This document shows, one piece after another, positions 1 through 40,815 of a DNA stretch of 40,815 bases. Origin of the DNA: a phage; the sequence record NC_104876.1, one strand, 5' to 3'. The notes under the pieces were generated by a model. The model was not told where the DNA came from, did not search any database, and was given only the letters and a program-made list of their open reading frames with translations. A program made the translations under genes and the position numbers. Position 1 is the stretch's first letter. Each line of letters opens with the position of its first letter.

Positions 1-261
1 ATCGAACCGGTTATGATCGCCAAGTTCCGCAAAGCGTTCGGCGAGAGTGTTTACAGCTACGCCCATATAGGACACCTGCACCACCAAAAGATTGTAGAAA
101 GCCGTAACATGATTGTTGAGCAACACCGCACTCTCGCGGCTAAAGATGCATATGCCTCCCGCGGTGGGTGGATGTCGGGCCGCAGTGCAAATGTAATTAC
201 TTATAGCGCCGAATATGGTGAGGTCGCACGTTTAACTATTTCACCGGAGATGCTTGGATGA
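1..261 (+). CDS. Metallophosphoesterase (calcineurin-like), C-terminal part; in-frame continuation of the CDS that runs off the window at 40815
   Basis: Frame is open from nt 1 (IEPVMIAKF...). GHxH motif HIGHLH at nt 64-81 completes the DxH/GDxxD/GNHDE/GH motif series found at 39946-40815. Stop at 259-261 overlaps next start (ATGA). Confidence 0.55.
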   Translation: MEPVMIAKFRKAFGESVYSYAHIGHLHHQKIVESRNMIVEQHRTLAAKDAYASRGGWMSGRSANVITYSAEYGEVARLTISPEMLG

Positions 262-743
262 AAGATATTGTGATTTTCGATTTAGACGGGACATTGGCAG
301 ATGGTACTCATCGTTTACACCTGCTGCCGAAAGATAACTACGGCGAAACCTGGGCGTGGAAACCATTTAACATGGCGTGCAAAGACGATGCACCCATTAA
401 AGATAACATCGAACTGTGTAACGCCCTTAATCGTCGCTATGCCGTTATTATCTTAACAGGCCGTAGTGATGACGCGGAAAAAGAAACCAGAATGTGGTTG
501 CAGCGCCACCGCGTCGAATTTTATCAGTTAATCATGCGCAGCAAACACGACAACAGAAAAGACATCGTAATTAAAGAAGAGGTGTTGCGTGCTATTGGGC
601 CGGAGAGAATCTTGTGTGCATTCGACGACTCTCCAGCGGTAATAAAGCATTTCCGCGAACTCGGCATAACCACTCACGCAGTTACTGAATACGACTGTAA
701 CGGGAACTCTACACACTTAAAACCACATGGGAGTGATAAATAA
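258..743 (+). CDS. HAD-superfamily phosphatase (small, cap-less; polynucleotide 3'-phosphatase or 5'-nucleotidase type)
   Basis: HAD motifs I FDLDGTL, II IILTGRS, III conserved K, IV FDDSP. GGAG RBS 9 nt upstream. Start and stop both overlap neighbouring genes. Confidence 0.65.
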   Translation: MKDIVIFDLDGTLADGTHRLHLLPKDNYGETWAWKPFNMACKDDAPIKDNIELCNALNRRYAVIILTGRSDDAEKETRMWLQRHRVEFYQLIMRSKHDNRKDIVIKEEVLRAIGPERILCAFDDSPAVIKHFRELGITTHAVTEYDCNGNSTHLKPHGSDK

Positions 744-1297
744 TGGCTAAGGTAATTATTCTTAATGGTCCTGCGGGCTGCGGGAAAGACACACTTGCTA
801 GGGCGCTGGTAGAAATGGGCTTTGCGAAGGGTGTCGCCAGTTTCAAGAATCCGATGTTCAATATTGCTATGGCTGCGTTAGGCCAGGATGCTTACCGCGA
901 GTTTCTCGACGGCTACGACGACCGGGCGCGGAAAGAAAAGCCAGAGGGTTTCCTTAACGGGTTGTCTCGGCGTCAGTTCATGATTGCCATTTCCGAGCAA
1001 TTCATTAAACCGGTATTCGGTGATGATTATTTCGGTAAGTATCTTGCCGGAAACTTGCCCGACGGCGACGAAGTTTTTGTGGTGTCTGATGGCGGGTTCG
1101 CCAGCGAAGTAGCCCCTATCGTTGCCGCGGGGCATGATGTGAGAATCGTCCGCTTGCACAGAGACGGCCATACGTTTGAAGGGGACAGCCGCGGTTACCT
1201 GTACGATATTGATGGTGTAAAAGATTATGACACCTACATCATACCGGGTTACGTTAAATCGAACGCTATAGGCATTGCTTTAAGATTAGGTTTGTAA
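743..1297 (+). CDS. P-loop nucleotide kinase, dNMP-kinase-like (phage T4 gp1-like)
   Basis: Walker A GPAGCGKDT with the GKDT signature recalled for dNMP kinases; about 184 aa; TAATG overlap with upstream HAD gene; followed by hairpin terminator. Confidence 0.6.
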   Translation: MAKVIILNGPAGCGKDTLARALVEMGFAKGVASFKNPMFNIAMAALGQDAYREFLDGYDDRARKEKPEGFLNGLSRRQFMIAISEQFIKPVFGDDYFGKYLAGNLPDGDEVFVVSDGGFASEVAPIVAAGHDVRIVRLHRDGHTFEGDSRGYLYDIDGVKDYDTYIIPGYVKSNAIGIALRLGL

Positions 1298-1302
1298 GAA
1301 AA

Positions 1303-1320
1303 AGGCCCCAAACGGGGCCT
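1303..1320. terminator. Bidirectional intrinsic terminator (AGGCCCC-AAAC-GGGGCCT) between convergent kinase and tail tube genes
   Basis: 7-bp GC stem, 4-nt loop, T-runs on both strands (TAGTTTTATG on plus; TTTTTCTT on minus). Confidence 0.6.
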
Positions 1321-1325
1321 TAGTT

Positions 1326-2498
1326 TTATGCGTATGTGATACGCTGAATAACAATAGACGACTGGTACTGGTTGCCAGTAGCCTGGCCTTCAATAGACTG
1401 AGTGATTGACTCAGGTCCTCCAATCTCAGGTGTAACCGCGGTAAGTTCTGCACGTTTCAAGCTGAAAGACATAGCCCCGTTTACTCCCGCCAGAATAGAG
1501 TTAATCTCCACCTGCTGCTCGTTGATAAACTTCTGAATCATCGCCATGTCGTACAGCTTACCGGAGATGGAGAAGGTGTTAGCTGCTCGGCTACGCTCCA
1601 CAAACGCTACGTTAGTGTTGCCGAGTTCGAACTGTGCGGACGCGCTGTTGTCGTTGGTGATGGTCAGGCTGTCGCAACGCAACGGCGTAGAACCGTCGAA
1701 CACAGAAACATCGACCGAGGAGAATGGCTCGTCACCAAACGTAACAGAGGAGAAATCAGAACCAGACGGCTGCGTGGTGAGAATCTCCTGACTGCGACCG
1801 ATGAACGGGAAGCTGCCAGTTACCATAGCGTTAACAGCCTGTTCGATGGTAAAACCAGAAACTTCCACGCCTTTGGTTAGTGTGTACGCGTCAGTCCCGC
1901 CGCACTGGCCTTTGTACCAGGTGAGAATAGAGAACGTCTTGCACTGGCTTCCCGTTTCCAGTTTATCCCCTGTCTTAGCGGCGGTAGTTACTGTCTCTGT
2001 GGTCAGGGTATGCTGGATACCCGCCCCGGTCACTACCCGCGCCTCTACTGCAGTTACGATAAACGGTTTTGCGTTGTCACCGGTTAAGCCGGTAAACGCA
2101 ATCAGGTCGCCCACTTCAACGCCGTCAGAAATAAAGCTACCTTCGGCACGGGTAAAGGTCTTGCCTGCAGGCGCGACGGTAATTGATAGCCCGGTCAGAG
2201 AACTACCGGATTGCCATGTAGAGCCTAAAGCACCCGCCAGCCAGTCGTCCTGGCTTTTCGAGCTAAGCTCAATAGCGTATTCTCCGCTAACCTGCTTGTT
2301 ACCGGTGCGGATTGACGTAGTTTCACGGCTGCCGTCCAGTTCGTTGGAGGTCAGCGTGTCGCGGGTAATGGCAGGAACGCCACCTGTGTTACGCAATGGC
2401 GACCAGACCGGGTTAGTCGGTGTTACGCCAGGGGTAGTTTCTGCCACATAGAATTGCGCAGTATTCGCGCCCTTAAAAGGAGTTGTAGCCATATTCAC
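1326..2498 (-). CDS. Major tail (tube) protein, gpV-like
   Basis: N-terminus PFKGANTAQFYVAETTPG resembles the lambda gpV start (PVKGAGTTLWVY) as recalled; 390 aa; last gene of the head-neck operon; start overlaps upstream stop. Confidence 0.5.
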   Translation of the reverse strand: MNMATTPFKGANTAQFYVAETTPGVTPTNPVWSPLRNTGGVPAITRDTLTSNELDGSRETTSIRTGNKQVSGEYAIELSSKSQDDWLAGALGSTWQSGSSLTGLSITVAPAGKTFTRAEGSFISDGVEVGDLIAFTGLTGDNAKPFIVTAVEARVVTGAGIQHTLTTETVTTAAKTGDKLETGSQCKTFSILTWYKGQCGGTDAYTLTKGVEVSGFTIEQAVNAMVTGSFPFIGRSQEILTTQPSGSDFSSVTFGDEPFSSVDVSVFDGSTPLRCDSLTITNDNSASAQFELGNTNVAFVERSRAANTFSISGKLYDMAMIQKFINEQQVEINSILAGVNGAMSFSLKRAELTAVTPEIGGPESITQSIEGQATGNQYQSSIVIQRITYA

Positions 2499-7170: not shown

Positions 7171-7174
7171 CAGT

Positions 7175-10242: not shown

Positions 10243-10255
10243 TTGTTGTGTCCTC

Positions 10256-12165: not shown

Positions 12166-12422
12166 TGTATCAGTTGTATAGGCCGTGGCGTGGTGCTCTT
12201 TTACCGTCGCCGCCGTAATGGTCGTTAGCTACAGCGATAGCCCAGGCGTTAGGAATGATTAGTAGTCTCATTTGAATAAACAATCCTTGGCAAGCTGACG
12301 GTATAGTTTAGCCGCGTAACTCTCGGCCTGACCTTTGCGCCGAAATATTTTCCCATTAACTGAATACTTGTTTAACTCTGGCTCGTAGCAAACTTGGTTG
12401 TCGATGAACTCCAGAATACTAA

Positions 12423-12659: not shown

Positions 12660-12937
12660 TTTGTCTCTCCTTTAGTGACGGTAATATCTTTCTTGTTAAG
12701 GTCTACAAAAATAGTATGTGCACCGCTTGTGTAAATGTGGCACCGCGGGATGAGGCTTTCTGTTGTCCATAAAAACTCGTACGGACGGTCGGCGCGCGCC
12801 CTTCTAACCTCAAACTTGCCGTATTTAACAATAACTCCGTAGTTATGTACCGCGGAGGGGTTGCAAAATCTACAATAAACGGCTTCTTCTATAGCGGATT
12901 CAATATCAGTGAATCTCGCGGAAACAGTACGTGCCAT
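12656..12937 (-). CDS. Hypothetical protein
   Basis: 93-aa ORF, 4-nt overlap with the downstream gene. Confidence 0.35.
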   Translation of the reverse strand: MARTVSARFTDIESAIEEAVYCRFCNPSAVHNYGVIVKYGKFEVRRARADRPYEFLWTTESLIPRCHIYTSGAHTIFVDLNKKDITVTKGETN

Positions 12938-12940
12938 TAT

Positions 12941-13204
12941 TTACAACCCCACATACCCGATGCCCCACATAACTAACATCCCAACCGCCACACCAATCAG
13001 AATCGATACTGTGGTATTAGTCCGCACCCTCTGGCTACGCAAAGTTTCGGCGTTCTCCAGAATGTCACGAACACGCGTTAAGTGTGCAATCTCCAGTTTC
13101 GCGGCGGTTAGTTCCTGAGTTGCTTTTGAATACTTACCATTAATCTTATCAAGCGCCTTCTTAAGGTCTTTGTTGTTCTTCTTGAGTTGTTCAATCTGCT
13201 CCAT
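12941..13204 (-). CDS. Hypothetical coiled-coil protein with C-terminal transmembrane anchor
   Basis: N-terminal coiled coil (EQIEQLKKNNKDLKKALDKI), C-terminal hydrophobic helix (VSILIGVAVGMLVMWGIGYVGL). Confidence 0.4.
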   Translation of the reverse strand: MEQIEQLKKNNKDLKKALDKINGKYSKATQELTAAKLEIAHLTRVRDILENAETLRSQRVRTNTTVSILIGVAVGMLVMWGIGYVGL

Positions 13205-13206
13205 AA

Positions 13207-13401
13207 CTACCCCACTATCTCATCACCGAGCCACGCCGTTTCTCGTATATCGTCAACCACACAAGCGGCGTGCTCACGGCTAATTGCAAAAATGTAGAAG
13301 CTAAACTTCTTCCCGTCGGCGTCGATGTGGTTAACCGAGTATGGTTTCCACAGGACGCCATCGATAACTACGGGTTCAGGCGCTTTCATACCCATCACCA
13401 T
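13207..13401 (-). CDS. Hypothetical protein
   Basis: 64-aa ORF in operon. Confidence 0.3.
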   Translation of the reverse strand: MVMGMKAPEPVVIDGVLWKPYSVNHIDADGKKFSFYIFAISREHAACVVDDIRETAWLGDEIVG

Positions 13402-13573
13402 GGGATTTGTTCAGGTTGAAGCGGTTAATCAGTTCACGGCGTGTCTCATAAAGCGACTCCACCATTTGCTCGGCTACCGCGATTTTAGTATTCAGGACGC
13501 GCATCACGTGGCTGATGTCTACGCCGCCGTTAACGGCCTCTACCATCATCTTTTCGTATTCACGGTCGGTCAT
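13376..13573 (-). CDS. Hypothetical protein
   Basis: 65-aa ORF; ATGA overlap with an upstream 52-aa ORF (13573-13728). Confidence 0.3.
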   Translation of the reverse strand: MTDREYEKMMVEAVNGGVDISHVMRVLNTKIAVAEQMVESLYETRRELINRFNLNKSHGDGYESA

Positions 13574-13907
13574 TCTTTACGTTCTCCCCACATGCGATTG
13601 AGATACTTGTTCTTGTCCGGCCCCGGGAAACTGTTGCGTTTCATCAGTTCCTCGCGTGTCGGGAACGGGGTGTGACTGACTTTACGGCCTACTCGTAACG
13701 GCTGGCTTACTGGGCCTTGTTCGCTCATTTCTTCTCTCCTGCATAAGCTGCTTTAAGTGTCTGCATCGCAGCGAACCAGAACGCGTCCGCTGGAATGCTG
13801 TTGCTCAGGTTACTAACGGCGATGCGTGCCATCAGTTGCGCGTCTTTGAATGCTTCGGTATCTGTGATTTTCATCTTCTCTACTCCGTTCTCGTTGTCGA
13901 TGGAGTA

Positions 13908-13936
13908 AATATAATAGGGTCGATGGTAATAGTCAA
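13908..13936 (-). promoter_or_regulatory. Sigma70-type promoter (TTGACT-N17-TATATT) for the operon ending at the terminase genes
   Basis: On minus strand: -35 TTGACT (13931-13936), 17-nt spacer, -10 TATATT (13908-13913); first ORF ATG at 13873 with GGAG RBS. Confidence 0.5.
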
Positions 13937-13960
13937 CTAGTCATTACAGAAAATAGATAA

Positions 13961-13988
13961 AAAAAATCCCGGCTGGGTCAGGGCCGGG
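13961..13988 (-). terminator. Intrinsic terminator after the lysis cassette
   Basis: CCCGGC-loop-GCCGGG hairpin followed by T8 on the minus strand, 3' of the endolysin gene. Confidence 0.6.
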
Positions 13989-14054
13989 ATAAAACTGGAG
14001 AGCAGAGGGATGGAGCAGGAGGTGATTTAAGTATCGTCGGATTAGTCTTAGGTG

Positions 14055-15878: not shown

Positions 15879-15909
15879 GAATAGTAGCCTATTCTATCTT
15901 AGTGTGCAA
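15879..15909 (-). promoter_or_regulatory. Promoter (TTGCAC-N17-TACTAT) with embedded operator palindrome GAATAGTAGCCTATT
   Basis: -35 at 15904-15909 and -10 at 15881-15886 on minus strand; operator 15879-15893. Near-identical to promoters at 17201-17231 and 39657-39688. Confidence 0.55.
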
Positions 15910-17200: not shown

Positions 17201-17231
17201 GAATAGTAACCTATTATGTTGGGGTGTGCAA
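17201..17231 (-). promoter_or_regulatory. Promoter (TTGCAC-N17-TACTAT) with embedded operator GAATAGTAACCTATTAT
   Basis: -35 at 17226-17231, -10 at 17203-17208 (minus strand); inverted repeat AATAG-N4-CTATT at 17202-17215. Confidence 0.55.
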
Positions 17232-17663: not shown

Positions 17664-17834
17664 ATGACACAGAATGAGGTAGCTGAGCGTATCGGAGTTA
17701 CTCGTCGCACACTAAATAACTGGTTAAAGAGTGGGAAGTTCCCTGATTGCTGTATCCGTATTATGGGCCGCCGACAGCCAGGTACGTTTGACCGAGAGAA
17801 AGTGGAAGCGTGGATTAAGGAGAACGTGAAATGA
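17664..17834 (+). CDS. Small HTH DNA-binding protein (AlpA/excisionase-like regulator)
   Basis: MTQNEVAERIGVTRRTLNNWLKSGKFP looks like a helix-turn-helix. Start set to 17664 (GAGGG RBS) rather than track 17631, which overlaps the promoter -10. Confidence 0.5.
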   Translation: MTQNEVAERIGVTRRTLNNWLKSGKFPDCCIRIMGRRQPGTFDREKVEAWIKENVK

Positions 17835-18064
17835 CCGAGTTCCAGTCGCGCGTATTTACGGCGGTCGTTTCGCTAACACGTAAAAAAGGGTCGTGCAGCG
17901 TTATCGACTTGCGCCGTAGTTATTTTAAGTACTATAGTTCAGCCATTATTGAAGGGTCGTTGAAAGTGCTGGTTAAATCCGGTGTCGTGAAAAATGTTGG
18001 TGGGAAATATAGCGCCGTTGCTGAAGTTCGCGGAATGACCGCTACTTTAGAAGACCTGGAATAA
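17831..18064 (+). CDS. Hypothetical protein with C-terminal LEDLE tail
   Basis: 77-aa ORF, 4-nt overlap with upstream gene, ends ...TATLEDLE. Confidence 0.4.
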   Translation: MTEFQSRVFTAVVSLTRKKGSCSVIDLRRSYFKYYSSAIIEGSLKVLVKSGVVKNVGGKYSAVAEVRGMTATLEDLE

Positions 18065-18121
18065 AAGAAAGCCCCAGCGTTAGAGCGCTGAGGCCAAATT
18101 ACTTGCTGAAGGAAATACAAC

Positions 18122-20362
18122 ATGTCCGATGTAATTTTATCCTACTCGTGGTCTCGTCGCAACGCGCGGGCAGAGAAAAAGGATATAAACGTCAGAACCA
18201 CACACACGGCAACGCTGGACGACCTGAAAGATTTAATCCAGCCGCTTGATGCTGTCCGTGACGGGATTAACCCAAAGACCGCGCCCGGCTATATCACTGC
18301 CGCGTGTGATTCTACACACAGCACCGTGAAAGACCCGGAAACCGGTGACTTTAAGCAAGCGCGTAAGGGTTTCTTCTATCGCTGTGATGCGTCTGTAAGC
18401 AAATCGTCGCTGGCGTATCTGGACTTCGACAGTGCAACGCCGGAAGAGTATCAGGAAGCTGTACGCCTGGTTAAGCGTAGCCGCCAGGCCATGTGCCTCT
18501 ACACTACGGCGTCACATACTGACGAGGCCCCGCGCTTTCGCGTCGTCATGCCGCTGGCCCGCCCGGTCGAAGGAGGCGACATCATCCGTGTTCGTCACGG
18601 ATTGCTTGCGCATTTCTTCAAAGGCATGGGTGCGGACCGCAGCGGGTTCACTTTGTCTCAGCCGATGTACCTGCCGCCGGTTGGCGCTACCGTTATCTGG
18701 TCGCGCCGTAACGACCTGATTGACCCGGACGAATTACTGGAGGGCATCCCGGATTACGAGGTGAGCAGCGCATCGGATTACCAGATACCGGAAGAACTGC
18801 GCACCGCGTTTACAGACGCGTTCGAAGCACTGGCGTTCGAGTATGGCGGTGTTATGACCCCGCGCGGACTGAAAATGCCTGCCACGCCGGAACACGCAGA
18901 AAACTACAGCGACCCGACCCCGCGACCGGATGACTTCCTGCTGTGTTTCCCGCGCGAGGGATATGAAGCGCCTAACGTAACCATGATTCACGATACTGAC
19001 ATCACCGCGACCGAAGGCATGTCGCCGAAAGAGGTGTGGAAGTACGCGTGCGATGCGACCGGGCTACCGTTCAGTGAAGTCGCTGAGGCAATCGGCTGGG
19101 GTGCGCGTGAATCCGTTTCATGCAGCCTCGACGACCTGGAAGACGACGAGGACTCAGAGGAGGACGAGTTACCAGAACCGGTAAAGGCTGATTTCGTCGT
19201 AGAAGGGTACATGCCGTCAGATTGTATCTGGGATATTGTTGGGGAATCCGGCACGTACAAATCGTTTTATACGCTTGGGATGATGTACCTTAGCGCTGCC
19301 GGATACCGGTTTGCGGGGGCGGATACCCAACGTTGTCACCATTTCTATATCGACGGTGAAGGTGGTGCAGCCACGCGCACACGTATTGACGCGCTCGCGG
19401 CTAAATACGGCGAGGAAGGTAAAGATTACGTACATGTCATTGATATGGGCGAAGTCGGCAAACTGAAAAGCCTGATTAAGATAATGCGTGAAATTGCGGG
19501 CGACGAGCCGATTGGCATGGTTGCGTTCGACACCCTCAACCAGACGCTGGCCCTGACGATTGATAAGTTCGACGAGAACAGTTCATCAACGGCAATCGGC
19601 ATGGGTAAAGTTATCGCCATCCTGAAAGAAGTGCGCGATGCCACTAAAGCCGCGGTAGGCGTTGTCCATCATACGCCGAAGGGCGGAAAGAAAGCCCGCG
19701 GCAGTGGGGCATTGTATGCTGGCGTCGACGTGGAACTGACAATCGAACGCGCCACTGACCGTCAGATAAACGTATATCATTCTAAATTTAAGCATGGGCC
19801 TCAACAGAAGACGGTTGGCATGGTGCTGGAGTCTGTGCAGTTCCGTGAAGCCCCGCCGCCGAAAGAATACCGTGCTGTTGAGTTCCTCGGCAGCACCGAG
19901 GAATATGGCACAATCGTAAACCTCGACCTGCCTGAGCCTCACAAGGCGCTTGTGCTGATGCCGTGGGGCTTCGAGCCGTTCAAGACCGACGAGGAGAAAG
20001 AGCGTGAAGAAGGGCTGACAAAGGAAGGTAAAGAAAACGTAAAGAATGCTGTAAAACGCGGGAAGGATGAAGGGCGTAAGGAATCAATACTCGCCGCGCT
20101 GGAAGACCTGCAACAGTCCGACGACACCGGACGAGGTTTTACCCAACGGCAGATAGTAGCTAACTCTGGCGACCACGCCATAACCAGCCATCATCTTGAG
20201 AAGATGCTGAAAGACGGCGAGTTGATGCTCGGGTGTGATGTTAACGGTGAAGTTATACCGGGAACATACCGGATACCGGAAAAGATGGGTGACAGATTAA
20301 GGCCGAAGACAATATACGAACCGAATGAGATGCTGGTGGTGACAGAGGAGGATTTGGAATAG
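18122..20362 (+). CDS. Primase-helicase (prim-pol-like N-terminal region plus RecA-like ATPase)
   Basis: Walker A VGESGTYKS and Walker B GMVAFD in the central region; acidic linker DDLEDDEDSEEDE; 746 aa; ends ...TEEDLE. Confidence 0.6.
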   Translation: MSDVILSYSWSRRNARAEKKDINVRTTHTATLDDLKDLIQPLDAVRDGINPKTAPGYITAACDSTHSTVKDPETGDFKQARKGFFYRCDASVSKSSLAYLDFDSATPEEYQEAVRLVKRSRQAMCLYTTASHTDEAPRFRVVMPLARPVEGGDIIRVRHGLLAHFFKGMGADRSGFTLSQPMYLPPVGATVIWSRRNDLIDPDELLEGIPDYEVSSASDYQIPEELRTAFTDAFEALAFEYGGVMTPRGLKMPATPEHAENYSDPTPRPDDFLLCFPREGYEAPNVTMIHDTDITATEGMSPKEVWKYACDATGLPFSEVAEAIGWGARESVSCSLDDLEDDEDSEEDELPEPVKADFVVEGYMPSDCIWDIVGESGTYKSFYTLGMMYLSAAGYRFAGADTQRCHHFYIDGEGGAATRTRIDALAAKYGEEGKDYVHVIDMGEVGKLKSLIKIMREIAGDEPIGMVAFDTLNQTLALTIDKFDENSSSTAIGMGKVIAILKEVRDATKAAVGVVHHTPKGGKKARGSGALYAGVDVELTIERATDRQINVYHSKFKHGPQQKTVGMVLESVQFREAPPPKEYRAVEFLGSTEEYGTIVNLDLPEPHKALVLMPWGFEPFKTDEEKEREEGLTKEGKENVKNAVKRGKDEGRKESILAALEDLQQSDDTGRGFTQRQIVANSGDHAITSHHLEKMLKDGELMLGCDVNGEVIPGTYRIPEKMGDRLRPKTIYEPNEMLVVTEEDLE

Positions 20363-20381: not shown

Positions 20382-20597
20382 TTAAGCCCCCTCACCTAAC
20401 GCCAGCCACTTGGCGTCTACTTGCAGCACTTCCGCCAGTTTAAACAGCGTCGCCGGGCGGACGTCCTGAGTTACACCGAGTGCAAGCTGGTTAATTGCGC
20501 CTTGGGAAACACCGGCCAGGACAGCCAGACGGCGCTGGGAGATGCCGAGTTCTTTGCGGCGTTGCTCTACACGGATACCTAGTTCAGATGGTTGCAT
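20382..20597 (-). CDS. XRE-family HTH transcriptional regulator (Cro/CI-like)
   Basis: LGISQRRLAVLAGVSQGAINQLALG is a classic XRE-type HTH; 71 aa; divergent from the operator-bearing promoter region 20627-20690. Confidence 0.65.
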   Translation of the reverse strand: MQPSELGIRVEQRRKELGISQRRLAVLAGVSQGAINQLALGVTQDVRPATLFKLAEVLQVDAKWLALGEGA

Positions 20598-20661
20598 GTC
20601 AATTACTCCTTAGTCAGTTGATATGTGAATAGTACCATATTAATTATTTTAGAAAAGCCCA

Positions 20662-20690
20662 TTGACATGTGAATAGTTCGCTATTATAGT
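20662..20690 (+). promoter_or_regulatory. Promoter TTGACA-N17-TATAGT with embedded operator GAATAGTTCGCTATTAT; second operator-like site at 20627-20643
   Basis: -35 20662-20667, -10 20685-20690; inverted repeat AATAG-N4-CTATT 20672-20685; upstream site GAATAGTACCATATTAA. Confidence 0.6.
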
Positions 20691-20720
20691 TAGCCCATAC
20701 CAAACGAGAGGAGAGATAAA

Positions 20721-23392: not shown

Positions 23393-23421
23393 TTGACACC
23401 TGAATAGTTAGCTATTATAGT
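23393..23421 (+). promoter_or_regulatory. Promoter TTGACA-N17-TATAGT with embedded operator GAATAGTTAGCTATTAT
   Basis: -35 23393-23398, -10 23416-23421; inverted repeat 23403-23416. Confidence 0.6.
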
Positions 23422-23487
23422 TCTAATCACTGGCCGGGCAGTTCCCGGAGTAAACTTTGAAATATAAACTGAAAAGCGAGAAATCAA

Positions 23488-26710: not shown

Positions 26711-26991
26711 CTAAAGAGGGCCGCGTACAGAAATACGCAAAAGACCGATTCGAGGCCCTTGGCGGCCTCGTTCGCAAACTCTCCTACGAGGGGCGTTCCG
26801 GCGCCCCAGACCTGCTGGTAATTCTCCCCGGCGGCATAGTCTGGTTCGTCGAGGTTAAGAAAGACGAGAACACGAAGCCAGACCCGCACCAGCTACGGGA
26901 ACATGAGCGGATGCGTAAACGTGGTGCGAATGTTTTTGTCGTTGGTTCGTTTAAACAGGTTGACGACCTAATAGCTAGCTATTATAGTTAG
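26707..26991 (+). CDS. VRR-NUC domain nuclease
   Basis: GAPDLLVILPGGIVWFVEVKK...HQLREH...RGANVFVV matches the VRR-NUC PD-(D/E)XK pattern. Start set to ATG 26707, coupled to the upstream small ORF. Confidence 0.55.
   Translation: MTKEGRVQKYAKDRFEALGGLVRKLSYEGRSGAPDLLVILPGGIVWFVEVKKDENTKPDPHQLREHERMRKRGANVFVVGSFKQVDDLIASYYS
26960..26988 (+). promoter_or_regulatory. Promoter TTGACG-N17-TATAGT with perfect 16-bp palindrome TAATAGCTAGCTATTA, located inside the 3' end of the VRR-NUC gene
   Basis: -35 26960-26965, -10 26983-26988; palindrome 26969-26984. Confidence 0.55.
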
Positions 26992-29586: not shown

Positions 29587-29590
29587 GAAA

Positions 29591-29608
29591 AGGCCCCGTT
29601 TGGGGCCT
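29591..29608. terminator. Bidirectional intrinsic terminator (AGGCCCC-GTTT-GGGGCCT) between replication arm and tailspike gene
   Basis: Same stem and flanks as the 1303-1320 terminator with inverted loop; T-runs on both strands. Confidence 0.6.
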
Positions 29609-29613
29609 TAGTT

Positions 29614-32568
29614 TTATTTATCTTCTAGTGCTGCCAGCCTCTTCTCGAACTCGCGCATCTTCTTACGCTGATAGGCAATCTCTATGAAGAACATCTGGTC
29701 CGCCCTAACCCCCCATCTGCCGCCGGGAGGGGATACTTGTACAGTCTGGCCATCTTCATCAATATCATACGCAGCTTCAATTGGGTCGTAGCACAAGAAA
29801 GCATATTTACAATCGGTAGAATCTTTCTCCATAAGCCCATGGTTGACCAAGATGTCTCGCACATCTTGGGCTATCACACCGAAGTGTATCCTTGCAGTGT
29901 CACCCTTGATTGCTAGGCTTTCAAGCCACTTAAAAGACATTACATGTATATCTTCCCATGCGGTAAGGAGTTGTCCCTCAATTTCCTCTTTATTCGTCTT
30001 AAGTGTACCATCAGACGTATTTATCGTACCGGTGGTCGCGTACACCGTAGTCCACCTATTACCTGCCGAACCTAAAGACACTCGCGAGTCTAAGTAAGGA
30101 AGAAAATTGTTGTATGAGTAGAAGCCTCCTGACGCATGCATAATAGCCCTGTTAGGCGTTGCATGGTTTGCCCCGTACAGTTGCAGCAACGCACCATCGG
30201 AACTGGATGCACCATCACCACCGCTAACTATCAGTCTTTGACCCGATGGGGTTTTAGTGGGGACTGTTTTTGAAATCAGCCCGTAATCACCATCAAACTG
30301 TGCACGCACGGCGGACTGTTGTGTACCATCGTATTCCAGCCCCGTTACATGCAGTGAGTACACGCTTACATCATTATCAAATGTTAAAGGTGCCCCTACA
30401 TGACGTACACCATCTACCCCCATGGCGACAGGTAGTGTACGGTTAGGAGTTGCTCCGTATTTGAAATCACGGGATACATACGGGTGGTCTTCAATCTTTA
30501 TCCGGTAGCTATATAAGTCAGCCGGATGCCCATCATGTTTGTACCATAACCTCGCACTGTTATCCCCTATGCTCCAGGGAGAGAAGAAGTCTTCCCCACC
30601 AAAGATATAGTACAACCAGCCATCTTTAACACAGACCGAGCCGACGCCGACAGCAGAGTTAACGATATGACCCTGGTATATTTGGTCGGTAATATTAAAC
30701 CACTGAACATCATCTAAAGATGAAGGCCAGGACGACACATTAACTTTGCACATAAAGGTCCTCGGATACGAACCTTCATAGCGGCTGTCCTGCTCACCAC
30801 CTTCCCACTCACCAAAGGCACGTTCTGTACCAAAGATGTAGAGATAGTCACCTACTTTAGCGAACGGAAGATTGGAGTGATGTACATTGTTCGGAAATCG
30901 CAAGTAGCTCCAGTTTTGCCCAGAATCGGTGCTCATCGCCAGTGTAGAGCCGGGGGAAGTAGGTAATGTGCCGCGTGTGGTAAGGTATAACACACCACCA
31001 TAACTTTTCACGCACGGCTCAGAAGCGTTATCAGCGTATGCCTGAGCGACAGTGCGACGAACGAATACGCCAGGATTGTCATACACGTTACTAAAATACA
31101 AGACACCGAGACGCCTAGGGGACACATCGCCGTTGTGATAGCCGACAGCGATAGTGTAGTTAACATCATCTATAACCGCAAAACTATGTGTCTCCGTGAC
31201 ACACAAATCAGCGTTAGTGGAGTATGCTACCCCAGGCAATTCGGTAATTTCCCACGGGCTGTCCCAGAATCGCGTTGCGAAGTTCCAGGTAACACCCGCA
31301 TTGTTTATGGTGGAACTCGCCGGGCTTGAGAGCGTAACAGTGAACGTATTTCGGTTAATTATAGACGCAACCGTCATATTACCCGATACGCCAGTTGCCG
31401 ATGTATTAGAGAAGTTAACCGCATCTCCTGCTTTTAGGCCGTGATTTTCTATAACAATGGTAGCAGTAGTGGAACCAGAACTAATAGTTATTCCGCCGGT
31501 TGGGTGTCTAAAATACGGCATTGGGCGTGACCAAAGTTCTGCCTTCTTCATCCGCATATTAGATAAGTAGCGGGTTTCTATAACTGCATATAATCGGTTG
31601 CCGCACGTACCCATGCTCATGCAGTGGTAGTTAACTCTGTCCGCGGAAACACTAGCATTATAGCCAGCATGGATTGGGGTCAACCACTCAGGCATTGACC
31701 AAGTCTGCCCGTCGTCACCAGAGCGAACCCAAGCTACATGTAAGTTTTGAACGCCATGTCGTTCGCCTGCCATAAAGGGAGCGTAAATAACATTGTCGTA
31801 GACGAAAGTTTTATCCTGCGTCCATGCGTTGTAGAACGGGGTATCCGTCACCTTAGTTAGTGAGCTGTTAAAGAAGCCATCAGCTACATAAGTAAGCGGT
31901 TGCCCAGCTACGCGCTCGTAAACGAATGCAGCATTCTTAAATTTACTAATGTCAGGTAATTGGGAAACTTTATAAGTCAAACCCCTGCCGTCTATAATCC
32001 AATTGTTGTGGGAAGCTGCTAATACATTAAAAATAGATTGAGTATCATCAGTTACGCCGTCGCCCACGGCGCCCCATGCGCGCGGGTCGTATTCGTCCTT
32101 CCATCGCGCCACATGTAAATCTGGGTACAGAATTGCACCGTTTACATCAGATATTTGCTGCCGCAGTATGACCGACCCGACAGGCTGCCACGCCCCATCT
32201 GCCACGCCACCGGTGGACTGCGGAGAAGATGACGCCGGGATAGTTTTTGGCAGAGCGCCCAACCAATGGTACCAATCCCCATCGCCACCAGAGGACGACG
32301 GCCACAAAACTGCGGTGTTTCGGTCGTTAGCGGATAGTGTACCGCCTGACGTGAAATCAAAATCTGCCAGTTTAAAACCAGCGTCACGCAACACGGCAGG
32401 TAGTGTCTTCTGGGTCTGCCCTGTAACCTGGTTTGTCGCGTAATCAATATCTGCACCCCCGGCTACTCCGCCGGATTTACCCGTGATAACCTCGGCTTCA
32501 AAAATCTGGTGCTTCTTGGCGGTCTGTAAATCCGCCAGGCTTAAAACGTCACCACATCCGCTTGACAT
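29614..32568 (-). CDS. Tailspike with sialidase-like beta-propeller (putative endosialidase) and C-terminal intramolecular chaperone (peptidase S74-type) domain
   Basis: Asp-box motifs SGDDGQTW and STDSGQNW; C-terminal about 130 aa (from ...TINTSDGTLKTNKEE) match the self-cleaving chaperone pattern with a Ser-Lys dyad; 984 aa. Confidence 0.6.
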   Translation of the reverse strand: MSSGCGDVLSLADLQTAKKHQIFEAEVITGKSGGVAGGADIDYATNQVTGQTQKTLPAVLRDAGFKLADFDFTSGGTLSANDRNTAVLWPSSSGGDGDWYHWLGALPKTIPASSSPQSTGGVADGAWQPVGSVILRQQISDVNGAILYPDLHVARWKDEYDPRAWGAVGDGVTDDTQSIFNVLAASHNNWIIDGRGLTYKVSQLPDISKFKNAAFVYERVAGQPLTYVADGFFNSSLTKVTDTPFYNAWTQDKTFVYDNVIYAPFMAGERHGVQNLHVAWVRSGDDGQTWSMPEWLTPIHAGYNASVSADRVNYHCMSMGTCGNRLYAVIETRYLSNMRMKKAELWSRPMPYFRHPTGGITISSGSTTATIVIENHGLKAGDAVNFSNTSATGVSGNMTVASIINRNTFTVTLSSPASSTINNAGVTWNFATRFWDSPWEITELPGVAYSTNADLCVTETHSFAVIDDVNYTIAVGYHNGDVSPRRLGVLYFSNVYDNPGVFVRRTVAQAYADNASEPCVKSYGGVLYLTTRGTLPTSPGSTLAMSTDSGQNWSYLRFPNNVHHSNLPFAKVGDYLYIFGTERAFGEWEGGEQDSRYEGSYPRTFMCKVNVSSWPSSLDDVQWFNITDQIYQGHIVNSAVGVGSVCVKDGWLYYIFGGEDFFSPWSIGDNSARLWYKHDGHPADLYSYRIKIEDHPYVSRDFKYGATPNRTLPVAMGVDGVRHVGAPLTFDNDVSVYSLHVTGLEYDGTQQSAVRAQFDGDYGLISKTVPTKTPSGQRLIVSGGDGASSSDGALLQLYGANHATPNRAIMHASGGFYSYNNFLPYLDSRVSLGSAGNRWTTVYATTGTINTSDGTLKTNKEEIEGQLLTAWEDIHVMSFKWLESLAIKGDTARIHFGVIAQDVRDILVNHGLMEKDSTDCKYAFLCYDPIEAAYDIDEDGQTVQVSPPGGRWGVRADQMFFIEIAYQRKKMREFEKRLAALEDK

Positions 32569-39131: not shown

Positions 39132-39548
39132 CTACTTTTCCTGTAATGCTTTACGCTCGGCGTTATGGAACGCCGCCACCTGTGTACCTAATGCCTTGAA
39201 TTGGTCGAGCAATTTGCTAAACGCTTCCTTAGAGAAAGGCTCGTCAAAGCTCCAGCCGTTTACTACTTCTGCCGCAAGTTGCCGGTTGAGGTCTTCTGCC
39301 AGTTCGTTAACCGCCAGGTTATATTCAGTATAATCACCAGAGTCTTTGGCAGCTTTTTCCAGTTCTTCAAAACGTGCCAGCCCGCGGCGGTACGCAATAA
39401 TGAAAGCACGCCCCGCTTTAACGGCGGCATCCGCATCTGGATTTACAACGTTAAGCCACTCACCGGAGTCTTCGCCATTCGGCAGGAGAATCGGCATCTT
39501 CTTGCCCGCCAGTGCTTTCTCTTCGAAATAAAAATCAGAAAGTTTCAT
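39132..39548 (-). CDS. Tail assembly chaperone (gpG-like)
   Basis: 138-aa ORF immediately upstream of the tape measure region; ends at slippery-like GGAAAAG plus stop. Confidence 0.45.
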   Translation of the reverse strand: MKLSDFYFEEKALAGKKMPILLPNGEDSGEWLNVVNPDADAAVKAGRAFIIAYRRGLARFEELEKAAKDSGDYTEYNLAVNELAEDLNRQLAAEVVNGWSFDEPFSKEAFSKLLDQFKALGTQVAAFHNAERKALQEK

Positions 39549-39656
39549 TCTTTAATCCTTTGGTTAAGAGGTTACAGGTTAACGATAAATGCGCCAGACG
39601 GGAACCACCCGCTTTTCGTGTGCGACACTAGGCGCAAAATTATTCTATCACATTAC

Positions 39657-39688
39657 TTGCACACCCCAACATAATAGGGTACTATTCA
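39657..39688 (+). promoter_or_regulatory. Promoter (TTGCAC-N17-TACTAT) with operator AATAGGGTACTATT driving the accessory cassette
   Basis: -35 39657-39662, -10 39680-39685; operator 39673-39686. Over about 35 nt it is nearly identical to the reverse complement of the 17201-17235 promoter. Confidence 0.55.
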
Positions 39689-39715
39689 CTTACACCAACA
39701 ATGAAGGGGTTTAAA

Positions 39716-39907
39716 ATGTCCAGTTTACCAGTTTCCTTAATTCTGATTGCACTGCTCGCTTATTTCGCGCCTTTCCTGGTTGCGTACTTCCGTAACCATA
39801 AAGCGAAGTTAGCGATATTCATGGCTAATCTGTTTCTTGGCTGGGCGCTGCTGCCGTGGGTCTTTATTTTAATCTGGGCGTGCAACTCGAATGTTAACGA
39901 GAAGTGA
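39716..39907 (+). CDS. Small membrane protein, Imm-like (superinfection-immunity family)
   Basis: Two hydrophobic helices with AYFAPFLVAYFRNHKAKLAIFMANLFLGWALLPWVFILIWA pattern recalled for T4 Imm-like proteins. Start at 39716 with AAGGGG RBS (track start 39701 lacks RBS). Confidence 0.45.
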   Translation: MSSLPVSLILIALLAYFAPFLVAYFRNHKAKLAIFMANLFLGWALLPWVFILIWACNSNVNEK

Positions 39908-39945
39908 GCTAGTATAGGACAAATCCTAAACACGAGGAAGTAAGT

Positions 39946-40815
39946 ATGGCCAAGAAGAAAATAACCGACGAACAGTTGCAGGAAGAATTGAACGCCGGGA
40001 TGAAGAATATCGATATAGCTCGTAAATACGGCATCTCTGACCGCGTTATCCGTATCCGTAAAGCGAAGCTGGCTAAGAAAGGCGTAGGCCACGGGCGCGA
40101 CGTTAGTCACCTTGTGCCGGACGGCTACAAGATTAAAGGAACGTCGTCGCTGGTGGACGAGTTCGGCAACACTAAGTTGCAATGGGTTAAGACAGACACC
40201 GATGCTGAACGTCAGGTCGAGTTGATGAAAGCCGTAATCGAAGGAATGAAATCAGAGATTACACCAGTCGCCCCTGTTAAAGCAGCACGCGCCAAACGCG
40301 ACGGCAAGCTACTCAATCTTTACACGGTATCTGATTTTCACCTCGGTATGCTGGCATGGGCTGACGAGAGCGGCGACGACTGGGATATGAAAATCGCGGA
40401 AGACCTGTTCTCTCGTTGGTTCGATGCCGCGTTTCAGAAAGCGCCGGATGCAGGAACAGGAGTTATTAATCTGCTCGGCGACCTTGCGCACTTCGATAGC
40501 CTGGACGCCGTTACACCGGCAAGTGGTCATGTTCTCGATGCGGACACGCGCTATCAGAAACTGGTCCGCTACATGATTCGTATGGTCCGCCGTGTCGTTG
40601 ATATGGCCCTTGTTAAGCATAAAAATGTTCGCTTGCTTATTGTGCAAGGTAACCACGACGAAAGCGGAATGATTTGGTTAGCTGAGATGTTTAGTACGCT
40701 GTACGACAATGAGCCGTGTGTGTTCGTCGATACGTCGCCGGATGTTTACAAGATGGTGCAACACGGCAAAACTACGCTGTTCTTTCACCACGGCCATAAA
40801 GCACGCTTCGATGCT
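39946..40815 (+). CDS. Metallophosphoesterase with N-terminal HTH-like region, 5' part; runs off the window end and continues in frame at nt 1
   Basis: GAGGAAG RBS; motifs SDFHLG (DxH), LLGDLAHFD (GDxxD), QGNHDE (GNHD/E), FFHHGH (GH); no stop before 40815. Confidence 0.6.
   Translation, partial: MAKKKITDEQLQEELNAGMKNIDIARKYGISDRVIRIRKAKLAKKGVGHGRDVSHLVPDGYKIKGTSSLVDEFGNTKLQWVKTDTDAERQVELMKAVIEGMKSEITPVAPVKAARAKRDGKLLNLYTVSDFHLGMLAWADESGDDWDMKIAEDLFSRWFDAAFQKAPDAGTGVINLLGDLAHFDSLDAVTPASGHVLDADTRYQKLVRYMIRMVRRVVDMALVKHKNVRLLIVQGNHDESGMIWLAEMFSTLYDNEPCVFVDTSPDVYKMVQHGKTTLFFHHGHKARFDA

What the first reader, a model, noticed from the sequence alone, without database searches (positions are those of the whole stretch)
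39657..40815. Opposite-strand four-gene accessory cassette inserted between the tail tube and tail chaperone genes (continues at 1..1322)
Between the gpV-like tube gene (1326-2498, minus) and the G/GT-like chaperone genes (39548 down, minus), where lambda-like tail operons are normally contiguous, sits a plus-strand unit. It has its own promoter (39657-39688) and a bidirectional terminator (1303-1320). It encodes an Imm-like two-helix membrane protein (39716-39907), an HTH-metallophosphoesterase of about 376 aa (39946-40815 plus 1-261), a HAD phosphatase (258-743) and a dNMP-kinase-like P-loop kinase (743-1297); the last three are translationally coupled. The promoter carries the same operator as the phage's early promoters, so the unit is wired into phage regulation. 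This moron-like position and the enzyme mix suggest a host-takeover or anti-defence module: degradation of a nucleotide immune signal, nucleic-acid end healing, or nucleotide salvage combined with superinfection exclusion. I know of no described system with this composition, but I cannot search.
Basis: partly seen in the sequence, partly recalled or inferred. Interest (0 to 1): 0.8.

Follow-up and report, generated by a model that had tools for sequence, protein, structure and literature searches.

The report
Phage nucleotide-processing operon splitting tail genes
The opposite-strand four-gene unit that interrupts the tail genes of this E. coli K1 phage is real, but it is a conserved and already annotated feature of its phage subfamily, most likely a nuclease plus a nucleotide phosphatase/kinase pair for DNA breakdown and nucleotide supply rather than a new anti-defence system.

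Summary
The window is a circularly permuted Kagunavirus genome (99% identical to fKuEco01 and K1ind1) and its ends are contiguous. A plus-strand operon sits between the tail tube and chaperone genes. It comprises a promoter, an Imm-like 2-TM protein, a 376-aa HTH-metallophosphoesterase (MPE), a PNKP-type HAD phosphatase, a T4-gp1-type dNMP kinase and a bidirectional terminator. The last three genes overlap (ATGA, TAATG).

The "novel accessory cassette" reading is only partly right.
- Imm plus MPE occupy this slot throughout Guernseyvirinae.
- Only the HAD-kinase pair is exchangeable. About 50 genomes carry it, while about 387 carry an unrelated 76-aa gene, with swap borders at window 262-1293.
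- The MPE-HAD-kinase trio is common in T1-like Drexlerviridae and has been described there. It also occurs in Autographiviridae with a different MPE family.
- Natural HAD-kinase fusion proteins exist, one encoded directly beside an HTH-MPE.

My best reading (confidence 0.45) is an early DNA-breakdown and nucleotide-salvage operon plus superinfection exclusion. A DNA end-repair role is the main rival. Nothing supports degradation of immune signals. No enzyme activity was tested, and a full-length MPE structure could not be modelled.

The parts
39657..39685 (+). Cassette promoter: -35 TTGCAC (39657-39662), 17-nt spacer, -10 TACTAT (39680-39685)
   Evidence: Sequence. A 28/29 copy lies at 17203-17231(-), where 0 are expected by chance. 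Conserved in Kagunavirus and, as TTGCAT-17-TATTAT, in Jerseyvirus SETP7. Not listed by the consensus scan because the -35 matches only 3 of 6.
39673..39686 (.). Palindromic operator-like motif AATAGGGTACTATT, overlapping the -10
   Evidence: AATAG-N4-CTATT occurs 6 times in the window against 0.045 expected, always at promoter-like sites. Conserved upstream of Imm in relatives.
39716..39907 (+). Imm-like 63-aa protein with two TM spans (superinfection immunity family)
   Evidence: PF14373 E=3e-13, 49.7 bits against cut-off 27.9. phrog_1039 E=3e-22. Two hydrophobic spans. SD GAAGGGG lies 5 nt upstream.
39946..40815 (+). HTH-metallophosphoesterase, residues 1-290 (the gene continues at window 1)
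   Evidence: phrog_704 E=2e-166. N-terminal three-helix HTH modelled with pLDDT 72-87; weak GerE/LuxR-type matches. MPE motifs I-III (D130/H132, G178-D179, G235-N236-H237) are invariant across the family.
1..261 (+). HTH-metallophosphoesterase, residues 291-376 plus the stop codon
   Evidence: The frame continues across the window ends. MPE motif V (G314-H315-x-H317) is invariant across the family; motif IV (H282) lies just upstream in the first part of the gene. Contiguity shown.
258..743 (+). PNKP-type HAD phosphatase (161 aa); its start overlaps the MPE stop (ATGA)
   Evidence: PF25109 HAD_PNKP E=7e-20. The family profile hits Pnkp1 4xrp at 1e-18 and T4 Pnk 1ltq at 5e-12 over the whole domain. 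Motifs DLDGT, TGR, DNRKD and FDD are present. It falls in phrog_415, which also holds T5 Dmp.
743..1297 (+). T4-gp1-type dNMP-kinase-like P-loop kinase (184 aa); its start overlaps the HAD stop (TAATG)
1302..1321 (.). Bidirectional intrinsic terminator shared with the convergent tail tube gene
   Evidence: 8-bp stem with 6 GC pairs, with T-runs on both strands. A near-identical hairpin lies at 29588-29617 between two other convergent operons.
1326..2498 (-). Context: tail tube gene, the last gene of the head-to-tube operon
   Evidence: 99.7% identical to the fKuEco01 tail tube protein.
39132..39548 (-). Context: tail assembly chaperone (G-like), first gene of the chaperone-to-tailspike operon
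   Evidence: 95.7% identical to the fKuEco01 TAC, which is annotated with a frameshift product.
17203..17231 (-). Twin of the cassette promoter, heading the leftward cluster of small genes
   Evidence: 28/29 identity, 0 expected by chance. Gene map.
15881..15909 (-). Third promoter of the same class (TTGCAC-17-TACTAT with the palindrome)
   Evidence: Inverted repeat I1, 81% over 47 nt. Palindrome at 15880-15893.

Best explanation
The unit is a genuine sigma-70-type operon of a virulent Kagunavirus. It is wired to the same palindromic regulatory site as the phage's non-structural promoters, and it has kept its slot between the tube and chaperone genes across Guernseyvirinae.

It has a fixed part and an exchangeable part. 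The fixed part is the Imm-like membrane protein and the HTH-metallophosphoesterase. The exchangeable 3' cargo is, in this genome, a PNKP-type HAD phosphatase plus a T4-gp1-type dNMP kinase that work as one bifunctional unit.

Most likely mechanism:
1. The HTH domain brings the Mn-dependent phosphodiesterase to DNA, where it acts as a nuclease on host DNA. T5's metallophosphatase A1 is the analogy.
2. The phosphatase removes 3'-phosphates from the resulting ends or nucleotides. MPE-fold nucleases can leave 3'-PO4.
3. The kinase converts 5'-dNMPs to dNDPs for phage DNA synthesis.
4. Imm blocks entry of superinfecting phage DNA.

Shown here: the genes, their family membership, intact catalytic residues, the gene linkage and fusions, and the regulatory motif. 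Inferred: all substrates, the pathway order, and the timing of expression.
For: - All canonical MPE metal and catalytic residues are invariant in relatives down to 31% identity. Motif II reads GD(L/F)xH, as in Mre11.
- The N-terminal domain is an HTH.
- The HAD protein is of the PNKP type. T4 Pnkp phosphatase acts on 3'-dTMP mononucleotide as well as on polynucleotide ends (PMC3592404).
- HAD-kinase fusion proteins P0165 and P0166 exist. P0165 is encoded directly beside an HTH-MPE (hhalign E=3e-130).
- The ordered trio recurs in Drexlerviridae and in a Yersinia phage. In Autographiviridae it follows exonuclease and endonuclease VII and uses a different MPE family, phrog_221.
- T5 A1, a predicted metallophosphatase, is essential and sufficient for host DNA degradation and shares an operon with the dNMP phosphatase Dmp. 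Dmp is in the same PHROG as this HAD protein.
- P. putida MPE yields both 3'-PO4 and 3'-OH ends.
- The authors of PMC13164509 independently propose a nucleotide-supply role in T1-like phages.
- The promoter is a near-copy of the one that heads the small-gene cluster.
- In Kagunavirus K1B4 RNA-seq, Imm falls in the same temporal class as DNA polymerase and the methyltransferases, not with the capsid and tail genes. This is weak evidence.
Against: - No activity was tested, and host DNA degradation by Kagunavirus is not documented.
- This MPE family has no significant sequence similarity to T5 A1 or to any solved MPE. Pfam MPE scores are below the gathering thresholds. No full-length structure could be modelled.
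- The HAD protein's closest characterised relatives act on polynucleotide ends, which fits repair as well as salvage.
- A gp1-type kinase adds a phosphate to a 5'-phosphate, so the chemical need to couple it to a 3'-phosphatase is conjectural.
- Most Guernseyvirinae manage without the HAD-kinase pair, so it is not essential.
- The kinase family profile matched T4 gp1 only over the P-loop at the sequence level.
Confidence: 0.45

Rival explanations
1. DNA end-processing and repair toolkit. The MPE acts as an Mre11/SbcD-like nuclease on phage replication or recombination intermediates, or on damaged ends. The HAD-kinase unit acts like PNKP, restoring 3'-OH and 5'-P ends so that host ligase and phage polymerase can use them. 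This could serve to repair damage from host nucleases.
For: - The HAD protein is of the PNKP type, with the T4 Pnkp motifs.
- HAD-kinase fusions share the phosphatase-then-kinase order of mammalian PNKP, by my recollection of that enzyme.
- Motif II is Mre11-like and the family carries the PHROG label 'DNA repair exonuclease'.
- In Autographiviridae the trio sits beside recombination and repair nucleases.
- P. putida MPE belongs to a DNA repair operon.
Against: - No Rad50/SbcC-like partner and no ligase is annotated in the near-identical genome.
- The pair is dispensable in most of the subfamily.
Confidence: 0.25
2. The MPE is mainly a regulatory or host-shutoff factor, pleiotropic like T5 A1. 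Its HTH binds specific DNA sites, possibly the AATAG-N4-CTATT palindrome. Nuclease activity would then be secondary or targeted.
For: - The N-terminal HTH is conserved family-wide.
- T5 A1 is annotated as required for shutoff of host genes and phage pre-early genes.
- The palindrome overlaps the -10 of the cassette's own promoter.
Against: - The palindrome is absent from the T1, Dhillonvirus, Guelphvirus and Webervirus sequences examined, although all encode the MPE.
- A DicA-like repressor gene directly adjoins two operator copies at 20618-20691 and is the better candidate binder.
- The catalytic residues are invariant.
Confidence: 0.1
3. RNA (tRNA) repair against anticodon nucleases, as with T4 Pnkp and Rnl1. 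The MPE and HAD proteins would heal 2',3'-cyclic phosphate ends and the kinase would phosphorylate 5'-OH ends.
For: - The HAD protein is homologous to the phosphatase domains of T4 Pnkp and Pnkp1.
- Bacterial Pnkp uses an MPE-fold phosphatase for healing 2',3'-cyclic phosphates (PMC2190708 and PMC3675462, listed).
Against: - No RNA ligase is annotated in the near-identical genome.
- The kinase is not of the Pnk type.
- The HTH domain points to DNA.
Confidence: 0.05
4. Anti-defence by destroying nucleotide immune signals (CBASS, Pycsar, Thoeris or type III CRISPR messengers).
For: MPE and HAD enzymes can hydrolyse nucleotides in general. The HAD-kinase pair is variable cargo flanked in relatives by homing endonucleases, a pattern also seen for counter-defence genes.
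Against: - The MPE is a core gene with a DNA-binding HTH found in more than 2,000 phages.
- By my knowledge of their folds, the known signal-degrading enzymes belong to other families (Acb1 is a 2H phosphoesterase, Apyc1 an MBL-fold enzyme). None was compared directly here.
- The four proteins also have no match to PADLOC defence-system models.
- The genomic context in other phages is DNA metabolism.
Confidence: 0.05

Closest known systems
Drexlerviridae (T1-like) 'DNA repair exonuclease - polynucleotide kinase - dNMP kinase' gene cluster (T1 gp16, gp64, gp62)
   Same: The same three protein families (phrog_704, phrog_415, phrog_139) at 41-59% identity, in the same gene order, often with overlapping genes. 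Described in PMC13164509 and hypothesised there to supply nucleotides.
   Different: It lies after the replication genes and before the lysis cassette, on the same strand as its neighbours. It has no Imm gene. In T1 itself the MPE is separate from the HAD-HNH-kinase pair. It is not embedded in the tail operon.
Phage T5 pre-early operon (A2 DNA-binding protein, T5.005 2-TM protein, A1 metallophosphatase, Dmp dNMP phosphatase)
   Same: It combines a DNA-binding function, a small 2-TM protein directly upstream of an MPE-fold enzyme, and a HAD-like nucleotide phosphatase of the same PHROG. A1 drives host DNA degradation.
   Different: A1 has no significant similarity to this MPE. T5.005 is not an Imm_superinfect protein. 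In T5 the DNA-binding function is a separate protein rather than a fused domain. Dmp dephosphorylates 5'-dNMPs so they are exported, the opposite of salvage, and it lacks a Pfam HAD_PNKP hit.
T4 polynucleotide kinase-phosphatase (PseT) and T4 gp1 dNMP kinase
   Same: The HAD domain aligns with the T4 Pnkp phosphatase domain across its catalytic motifs. The kinase's best structural match is T4 gp1. T4 gene 1 also lies among tail and head genes.
   Different: In T4 the phosphatase is fused to a Pnk-type kinase, and gp1 is a separate, unlinked gene. Here a PNKP-type phosphatase is paired with, and in some relatives fused to, a gp1-type kinase.
Pseudomonas putida MPE (Lhr-MPE DNA repair operon) and Mre11/SbcD nucleases
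   Same: All are binuclear metallophosphoesterases acting on DNA. Motif II here is GD(L/F)xH, as I recall for Mre11. P. putida MPE shows that MPE-fold nucleases can leave 3'-PO4 ends that a 3'-phosphatase would need to remove.
   Different: No detectable sequence similarity. No Rad50/SbcC or Lhr partner. The N-terminal HTH and the invariant TPxSxHxLDxDxR block are specific to the phage family.
T4 Imm superinfection immunity protein
   Same: A Pfam Imm_superinfect domain and a small protein with two TM spans.
   Different: It is 63 aa and its function is untested. Here it is the leader gene of an enzyme operon.
Lambdoid morons (autonomous promoter-gene-terminator units inside late operons)
   Same: Its own promoter and terminator, embedded in a late structural region, on the opposite strand.
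   Different: The phage is virulent. Imm plus MPE are conserved across the subfamily, and their composition is not foreign. Only the HAD-kinase segment varies between relatives.

Membership tests
Imm_superinfect (T4 Imm-like, PF14373) | Profile match above the curated threshold | tested here: met
   49.7 bits against cut-off 27.9, E=3e-13. phrog_1039 E=3e-22.
Imm_superinfect (T4 Imm-like, PF14373) | Small inner-membrane protein with two hydrophobic spans | tested here: met
   Kyte-Doolittle windows above 1.6 at residues 1-26 and 30-57.
Imm_superinfect (T4 Imm-like, PF14373) | Blocks DNA entry of superinfecting phage | not testable with these tools
   Needs an exclusion assay.
Binuclear metallophosphoesterase superfamily | Motifs I-V (DxH, GD, GNH[DE], H, GHxH) supplying the metal ligands | tested here: met
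   D130/H132, G178-D179, G235-N236-H237, H282 and G314-H315-x-H317 are invariant in 9 family members down to 31% identity.
Binuclear metallophosphoesterase superfamily | Pfam Metallophos or Metallophos_2 match above the gathering score | tested here: not met
   20.1 bits against 27, and 18.2 against 21.5. The family is too divergent for these models, so membership rests on the motifs.
Mre11/SbcD nuclease family | Detectable homology to, or fold match with, Mre11/SbcD, including the capping domain | tested here: inconclusive
   No PDB sequence hit to any MPE, with the single sequence or with the family profile. A full-length model was impossible and the fragment model had pLDDT 44.8.
Mre11/SbcD nuclease family | Rad50/SbcC-type ATPase partner gene | tested here: not met
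   None among the 72 annotated genes of the 99%-identical genome fKuEco01.
T5 A1 family (host-DNA-degrading metallophosphatase) | Sequence or profile homology to A1 | tested here: not met
   Best BLASTP E=0.26. hhalign probability 1.5%, aligning only the GNHD motif. The PHROGs differ, 704 against 1745.
PNKP-type HAD phosphatase (PF25109; T4 Pnkp C-terminal domain) | Profile match above threshold, over the full domain | tested here: met
   72.1 bits against 27.6, covering 3-144 of the protein and 2-140 of the 143-position profile. The family profile hits 4xrp at 1e-18 and 1ltq at 5e-12, residues 160-297.
PNKP-type HAD phosphatase (PF25109; T4 Pnkp C-terminal domain) | Catalytic residues equivalent to T4 Asp165, Asp167, Ser211, Lys258 and Asp278 (PMC3592404) | tested here: met
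   D8-L-D10-G-T, T67-G-R, D98-N-R-K-D and F-D123-D124 align with T4 DVDGT, SGR, DTRKD and IDD. D8, D10, T67, R69 and D124 are invariant in the family.
PNKP-type HAD phosphatase (PF25109; T4 Pnkp C-terminal domain) | 3'-phosphatase activity on polynucleotide ends or 3'-dNMP, as opposed to 5'-dNMPase activity like T5 Dmp | not testable with these tools
   T5 Dmp shares phrog_415, but BLASTP aligns it only over motif I (E=1e-4). The substrate needs an enzyme assay.
T4 gp1-type dNMP kinase | P-loop kinase fold closest to gp1 | tested here: met
T4 gp1-type dNMP kinase | Sequence-level homology to gp1 beyond the P-loop | tested here: inconclusive
   hhalign aligned only residues 3-31, probability 46%. 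The PDB profile search found only P-loop matches.
T4 gp1-type dNMP kinase | Phosphorylates dNMPs to dNDPs | not testable with these tools
   Needs an enzyme assay.
Polynucleotide 5'-kinase (T4 Pnk, mammalian PNKP or Trl1 kinase domain) | Kinase fold closest to Pnk-type kinases | tested here: not met
Moron (autonomous accessory unit in a late operon) | Own promoter and terminator | tested here: met
Moron (autonomous accessory unit in a late operon) | Present in some close relatives and absent in others | tested here: not met
   Not met for the unit as a whole. Imm plus MPE are present in all Guernseyvirinae examined. It is met only for the HAD-kinase segment: about 50 records carry it and about 387 carry the 76-aa alternative.
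Moron (autonomous accessory unit in a late operon) | Foreign base composition | tested here: not met
   GC is 51% for the MPE, 50% for the kinase, 45% for HAD and 46% for Imm, against 51% for the genome and 45% for the phage's own small-gene cluster.

The most novel reading that the evidence does not exclude
The MPE, PNKP-type phosphatase and gp1-type dNMP kinase trio is an uncharacterised three-enzyme pathway shared by thousands of virulent phages. In this reading an ambidextrous MPE nuclease cuts DNA to products carrying 3'-phosphates. A bifunctional phosphatase-kinase, sometimes a single fused polypeptide, converts those products into dNDPs. That would be a salvage route distinct from those of T4, T5 and T7. 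It might also let phages replicate when hosts deplete dNTP pools as a defence.
Probability: 0.25. Interest if true: 0.6.

Novelty: already known. Interest (0 to 1): 0.3.

Why it matters
None of these three enzymes has been characterised biochemically, as far as the literature held here shows, even though the MPE is a near-universal core gene of T1-like and Jersey-like phages, many of which are used therapeutically. Knowing whether the module degrades host DNA, salvages nucleotides or repairs ends would explain a conserved part of their infection cycle. It would also help predict how they behave on hosts with nucleotide-depleting or nuclease-based defences.

Two further points are of interest:
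- Genome architecture: an antisense operon with an early-type promoter has stably split the otherwise invariant tube-chaperone-tape-measure gene order across a whole subfamily.
- Evolution: the operon's 3' end is a defined slot for gene exchange.

Tried and rejected
- **76-aa cargo as a kinase remnant.** I asked whether the alternative 76-aa cargo gene of phage 26 and SETP7 is a remnant of the kinase. BLASTP found no similarity, so the event is a replacement and not a deletion.
- **76-aa protein as DUF3310/T7 gp1.7-like.** I recalled that the 76-aa protein resembles DUF3310/SaV-like domains and the T7 gp1.7 nucleotide kinase. There was no Pfam hit even at E≤10, and BLASTP against T7 gp1.7 gave E=0.099. 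Rejected.
- **Homology of the MPE to T5 A1.** Not significant. I kept it only as a functional analogy.
- **T5.005 as an Imm homologue.** No: it belongs to a different PHROG and has no PF14373 hit.
- **Homology between the siphophage MPE (phrog_704) and the Autographiviridae MPE (phrog_221).** hhalign found none, so I treat this as non-orthologous displacement.
- **Full-length MPE structure.** The 1-290 fragment modelled without an alignment gave pLDDT 44.8 and was not searched.
- **PADLOC scan.** No hits.
- **Sequence-level link of the kinase to T4 gp1.** Only the P-loop aligned. The link rests on the structure comparison.
Full report
**What the window is.**
- Both ends of the window match Kagunavirus genomes (Guernseyvirinae; the K1G, K1ind and fKuEco01 group) at 95-99.5% identity.
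- The two ends map to adjacent coordinates in those records: K1ind1 10077-12676 and 12677-13992, and fKuEco01 8923-11522 and 11523-12837.
- So the window is a circularly permuted complete phage genome and the finding's two halves are one locus.
- I transferred the fKuEco01 annotation onto the window. The minus strand reads terminase to tube (11506 down to 1326). Then comes the plus-strand unit. Then the minus strand resumes with chaperone, tape measure and the rest down to the tailspike (39548 down to 29617).

**Anatomy of the unit.**
- The ORFs are as stated.
- Imm (39716-39907) passes the Pfam Imm_superinfect threshold and has two hydrophobic spans.
- The 376-aa protein formed by joining 39946-40815 to 1-261 is 99% identical to full-length database proteins. 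It belongs to phrog_704, labelled 'DNA repair exonuclease'.
- The next gene (258-743) is a HAD_PNKP phosphatase. The last (743-1297) belongs to phrog_139, labelled 'dNMP kinase'.
- The overlaps ATGA (258-261) and TAATG (741-745) are visible in the sequence.
- An 8-bp GC-rich hairpin at 1302-1321 is called as a terminator on both strands.
- fKuEco01 also annotates a 41-codon ORF (39589-39714). It overlaps the promoter, and I do not count it as a gene.

**Regulation.**
- The proposed promoter, TTGCAC-17-TACTAT (39657-39685), is too weak in its -35 for the consensus scan to list.
- It nevertheless recurs almost exactly, 28 of 29 bases, at 17203-17231 on the minus strand, where chance expects none. 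It recurs again near 15881-15909.
- Its -10 is embedded in the palindrome AATAG-N4-CTATT. That palindrome occurs six times in the genome against 0.045 expected.
- Three copies sit in this promoter class. The other three sit in the spacer of near-consensus TTGACA-17-TATAGT promoters ahead of the replication genes (20672, 23403, 26970).
- The promoter and palindrome upstream of Imm are conserved in other Kagunavirus genomes. They are also conserved in Jerseyvirus SETP7, where the surrounding DNA is only about 73% identical.
- So the unit does share a regulatory site with the phage's non-structural promoters.
- Who binds the site is unknown. A DicA-like repressor gene (20385-20597) directly adjoins two copies and is the obvious candidate.
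- The only transcriptome of a Kagunavirus (K1B4, PMC12645636) is coarse. It places Imm in the same temporal class as DNA polymerase and the methyltransferases, and not with the capsid and tail genes.

**Conservation: a fixed part and an exchangeable part.**
- Jerseyvirus SETP7 has the same slot, on the same strand, holding Imm, the MPE and a 76-aa ORF.
- Kagunavirus phage 26 has the same content. Ro145c2YLVW has Imm, the MPE, an HNH gene, the 76-aa ORF and a second HNH gene.
- Aligning the window with phage 26 shows homology up to the MPE stop codon and again from just before the terminator. Window 262-1293, which is exactly HAD plus kinase, is replaced by a 224-bp segment encoding the unrelated 76-aa protein.
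- The 76-aa version is the majority state, at 387 records that are mostly Jerseyvirus. About 50 records carry the HAD-kinase version.
- Base composition does not mark the unit as foreign.
- So Imm plus MPE are a conserved core feature of the subfamily. Only the 3' cargo behaves like an accessory element.

**The trio beyond this subfamily.**
- Full-length HTH-MPE homologues occur in 2,044 phage records.
- In Webervirus, Guelphvirus and a Yersinia phage the MPE is followed by the same HAD and kinase families, but after the replication genes and next to lysis or head genes.
- In T1 the MPE (gp16) is separate from a HAD-HNH-kinase group (gp64, gp63, gp62).
- In Dhillonvirus and in the Rhodobacter and Vibrio phages examined, the MPE is not accompanied by the HAD-kinase pair.
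- PMC13164509 reports the 'DNA repair exonuclease' as persistent in 508 of 522 Drexlerviridae. It reports PNK and dNMP kinase as the genes most often following it, and proposes that they enhance nucleotide supply.
- So the composition is already described, although the enzymes are uncharacterised.

**Three results that tie the three activities together.**
1. Autographiviridae (Klebsiella vB_Kpn1-P3 and Aeromonas CF7) carry the ordered trio MPE-HAD-kinase after exonuclease and endonuclease VII. Their MPE belongs to another family, phrog_221, with no detectable similarity to phrog_704.
2. An exhaustive search with the kinase found 1,686 cluster representatives at E≤1e-10, nearly all standalone proteins of about 190 aa. 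Two are natural fusions of an N-terminal HAD_PNKP domain to this kinase (P0165, P0166).
3. P0165 lies on a 60.8-kb phage-like contig directly upstream of an HTH-MPE of the window's family (hhalign E=3e-130).

**What each enzyme is.**
- **MPE.** All metal and catalytic residues are invariant across members down to 31% identity. Motif II is GD(L/F)xH, and there is a family-specific invariant block, TPxSxHxLDxDxR. The N-terminus is a three-helix HTH. No solved structure is detectable by sequence, and I could not obtain a usable model.
- **HAD.** It is firmly of the PNKP type (Pnkp1 1e-18; T4 Pnk 5e-12 over the whole domain). It carries the counterparts of the T4 catalytic residues. Its PHROG also contains T5 Dmp, a 5'-dNMP phosphatase, but Dmp aligns only over motif I.

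**Mechanism.**
- I favour a DNA-breakdown and nucleotide-salvage operon (0.45).
- The pathway would run as follows. An HTH-guided MPE nuclease degrades DNA. The PNKP-type phosphatase removes 3'-phosphates from ends or nucleotides. The gp1-type kinase makes dNDPs. Imm provides superinfection exclusion.
- The precedents are:
  - T5 A1, a predicted metallophosphatase that is essential and sufficient for host DNA degradation and shares an operon with Dmp;
  - P. putida MPE, which leaves both 3'-PO4 and 3'-OH ends;
  - T4 Pnkp's activity on 3'-dTMP.
- The main rival (0.25) is a DNA end-repair toolkit. The HAD protein's relatives and the PNKP-like fusion order favour it. The kinase fold and the lack of a Rad50-like partner or a ligase weaken it.
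- A regulatory role for the HTH-MPE (0.1), tRNA repair (0.05) and immune-signal degradation (0.05) have little support. The remaining 0.1 is left unassigned, for functions not considered here.
- All substrate assignments are inference.

**Verdict.**
- This is an already annotated feature conserved across the subfamily, and its enzyme trio is widespread and already noted in the literature.
- It is not a new system, and nothing points specifically to anti-defence.
- The biochemistry is still open, which is why I keep a modest novel reading.

Noticed in passing
window 20618-20691, 23393-23422, 26946-26989 (+); 20385-20597 (-): A second promoter class, TTGACA-17-TATAGT, carries the same AATAG-N4-CTATT palindrome in its spacer and precedes the replication genes. 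Two operator-like copies, one exact and one degenerate, lie directly upstream of a divergent DicA-like repressor gene, an arrangement typical of an autoregulated switch in a phage regarded as virulent.
   Followed up: partly
window 39599-39616 and 39619-39636 (+): Two small hairpins lie between the chaperone gene and the cassette promoter. The first is CGGG-AACCA-CCCG followed by a T-run; the second is TGCGC...GCGCA. The first is conserved between Kagunavirus and Jerseyvirus despite 73% overall DNA identity. Their function is unknown. They could insulate the cassette promoter or form the 5' leader of the chaperone mRNA.
   Followed up: no
window 39642-39670 (-): The bidirectional terminator after the tube gene implies that the chaperone-to-tailspike operon needs its own promoter. 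A candidate on the minus strand is TTGGGG-16-TAGAAT with an extended -10 (TGATAGAAT). That would put the palindrome about 45 bp upstream of its start, where an activator could sit. This comes from reading the sequence only and was not tested.
   Followed up: no
window 29588-29617 and 7150-7179: The terminator hairpin of the cassette (AAAAGGCCCC-loop-GGGGCCTTAGTTTT) recurs at 87% identity between the convergent helicase and tailspike genes, and at 73% near 7150. The phage appears to reuse one terminator module.
   Followed up: no
L011 3628-4098 and 4386-4874; L005 4709-5203; L010 5465-5959; L008 4741-5250: HNH homing-endonuclease genes repeatedly sit inside or next to the MPE, HAD and kinase genes in relatives (Ro145c2YLVW, ACG-M12, T1, Vibrio phage). 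This may explain how the 3' cargo of the operon is exchanged.
   Followed up: partly
window about 17800-20360 (+): The primase/helicase region is only 31% identical at the protein level to fKuEco01, over 54% of that protein's length. Several small genes at 12.7-16.8 kb are also divergent or absent, although the rest of the genome is 95-100% identical. These are mosaic replacements in the early region.
   Followed up: no
L019 4650-5375 (T4 gene 1): T4's dNMP kinase gene also lies among tail and head genes (57A, 1, 3, 2, 4). A nucleotide kinase next to tail genes therefore has a classical precedent.
   Followed up: no
L017 2504-3705 (Vequintavirus V18): The same kinase family is followed by a phrog_420 protein that the window's HAD protein also matches weakly (E=7e-9). 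That looks like a kinase-then-phosphatase pair in the reverse order in large myoviruses.
   Followed up: no
window 39589-39714 (+): A 41-codon ORF annotated as a hypothetical protein in fKuEco01 contains the cassette promoter and operator. It is probably an annotation artefact.
   Followed up: partly
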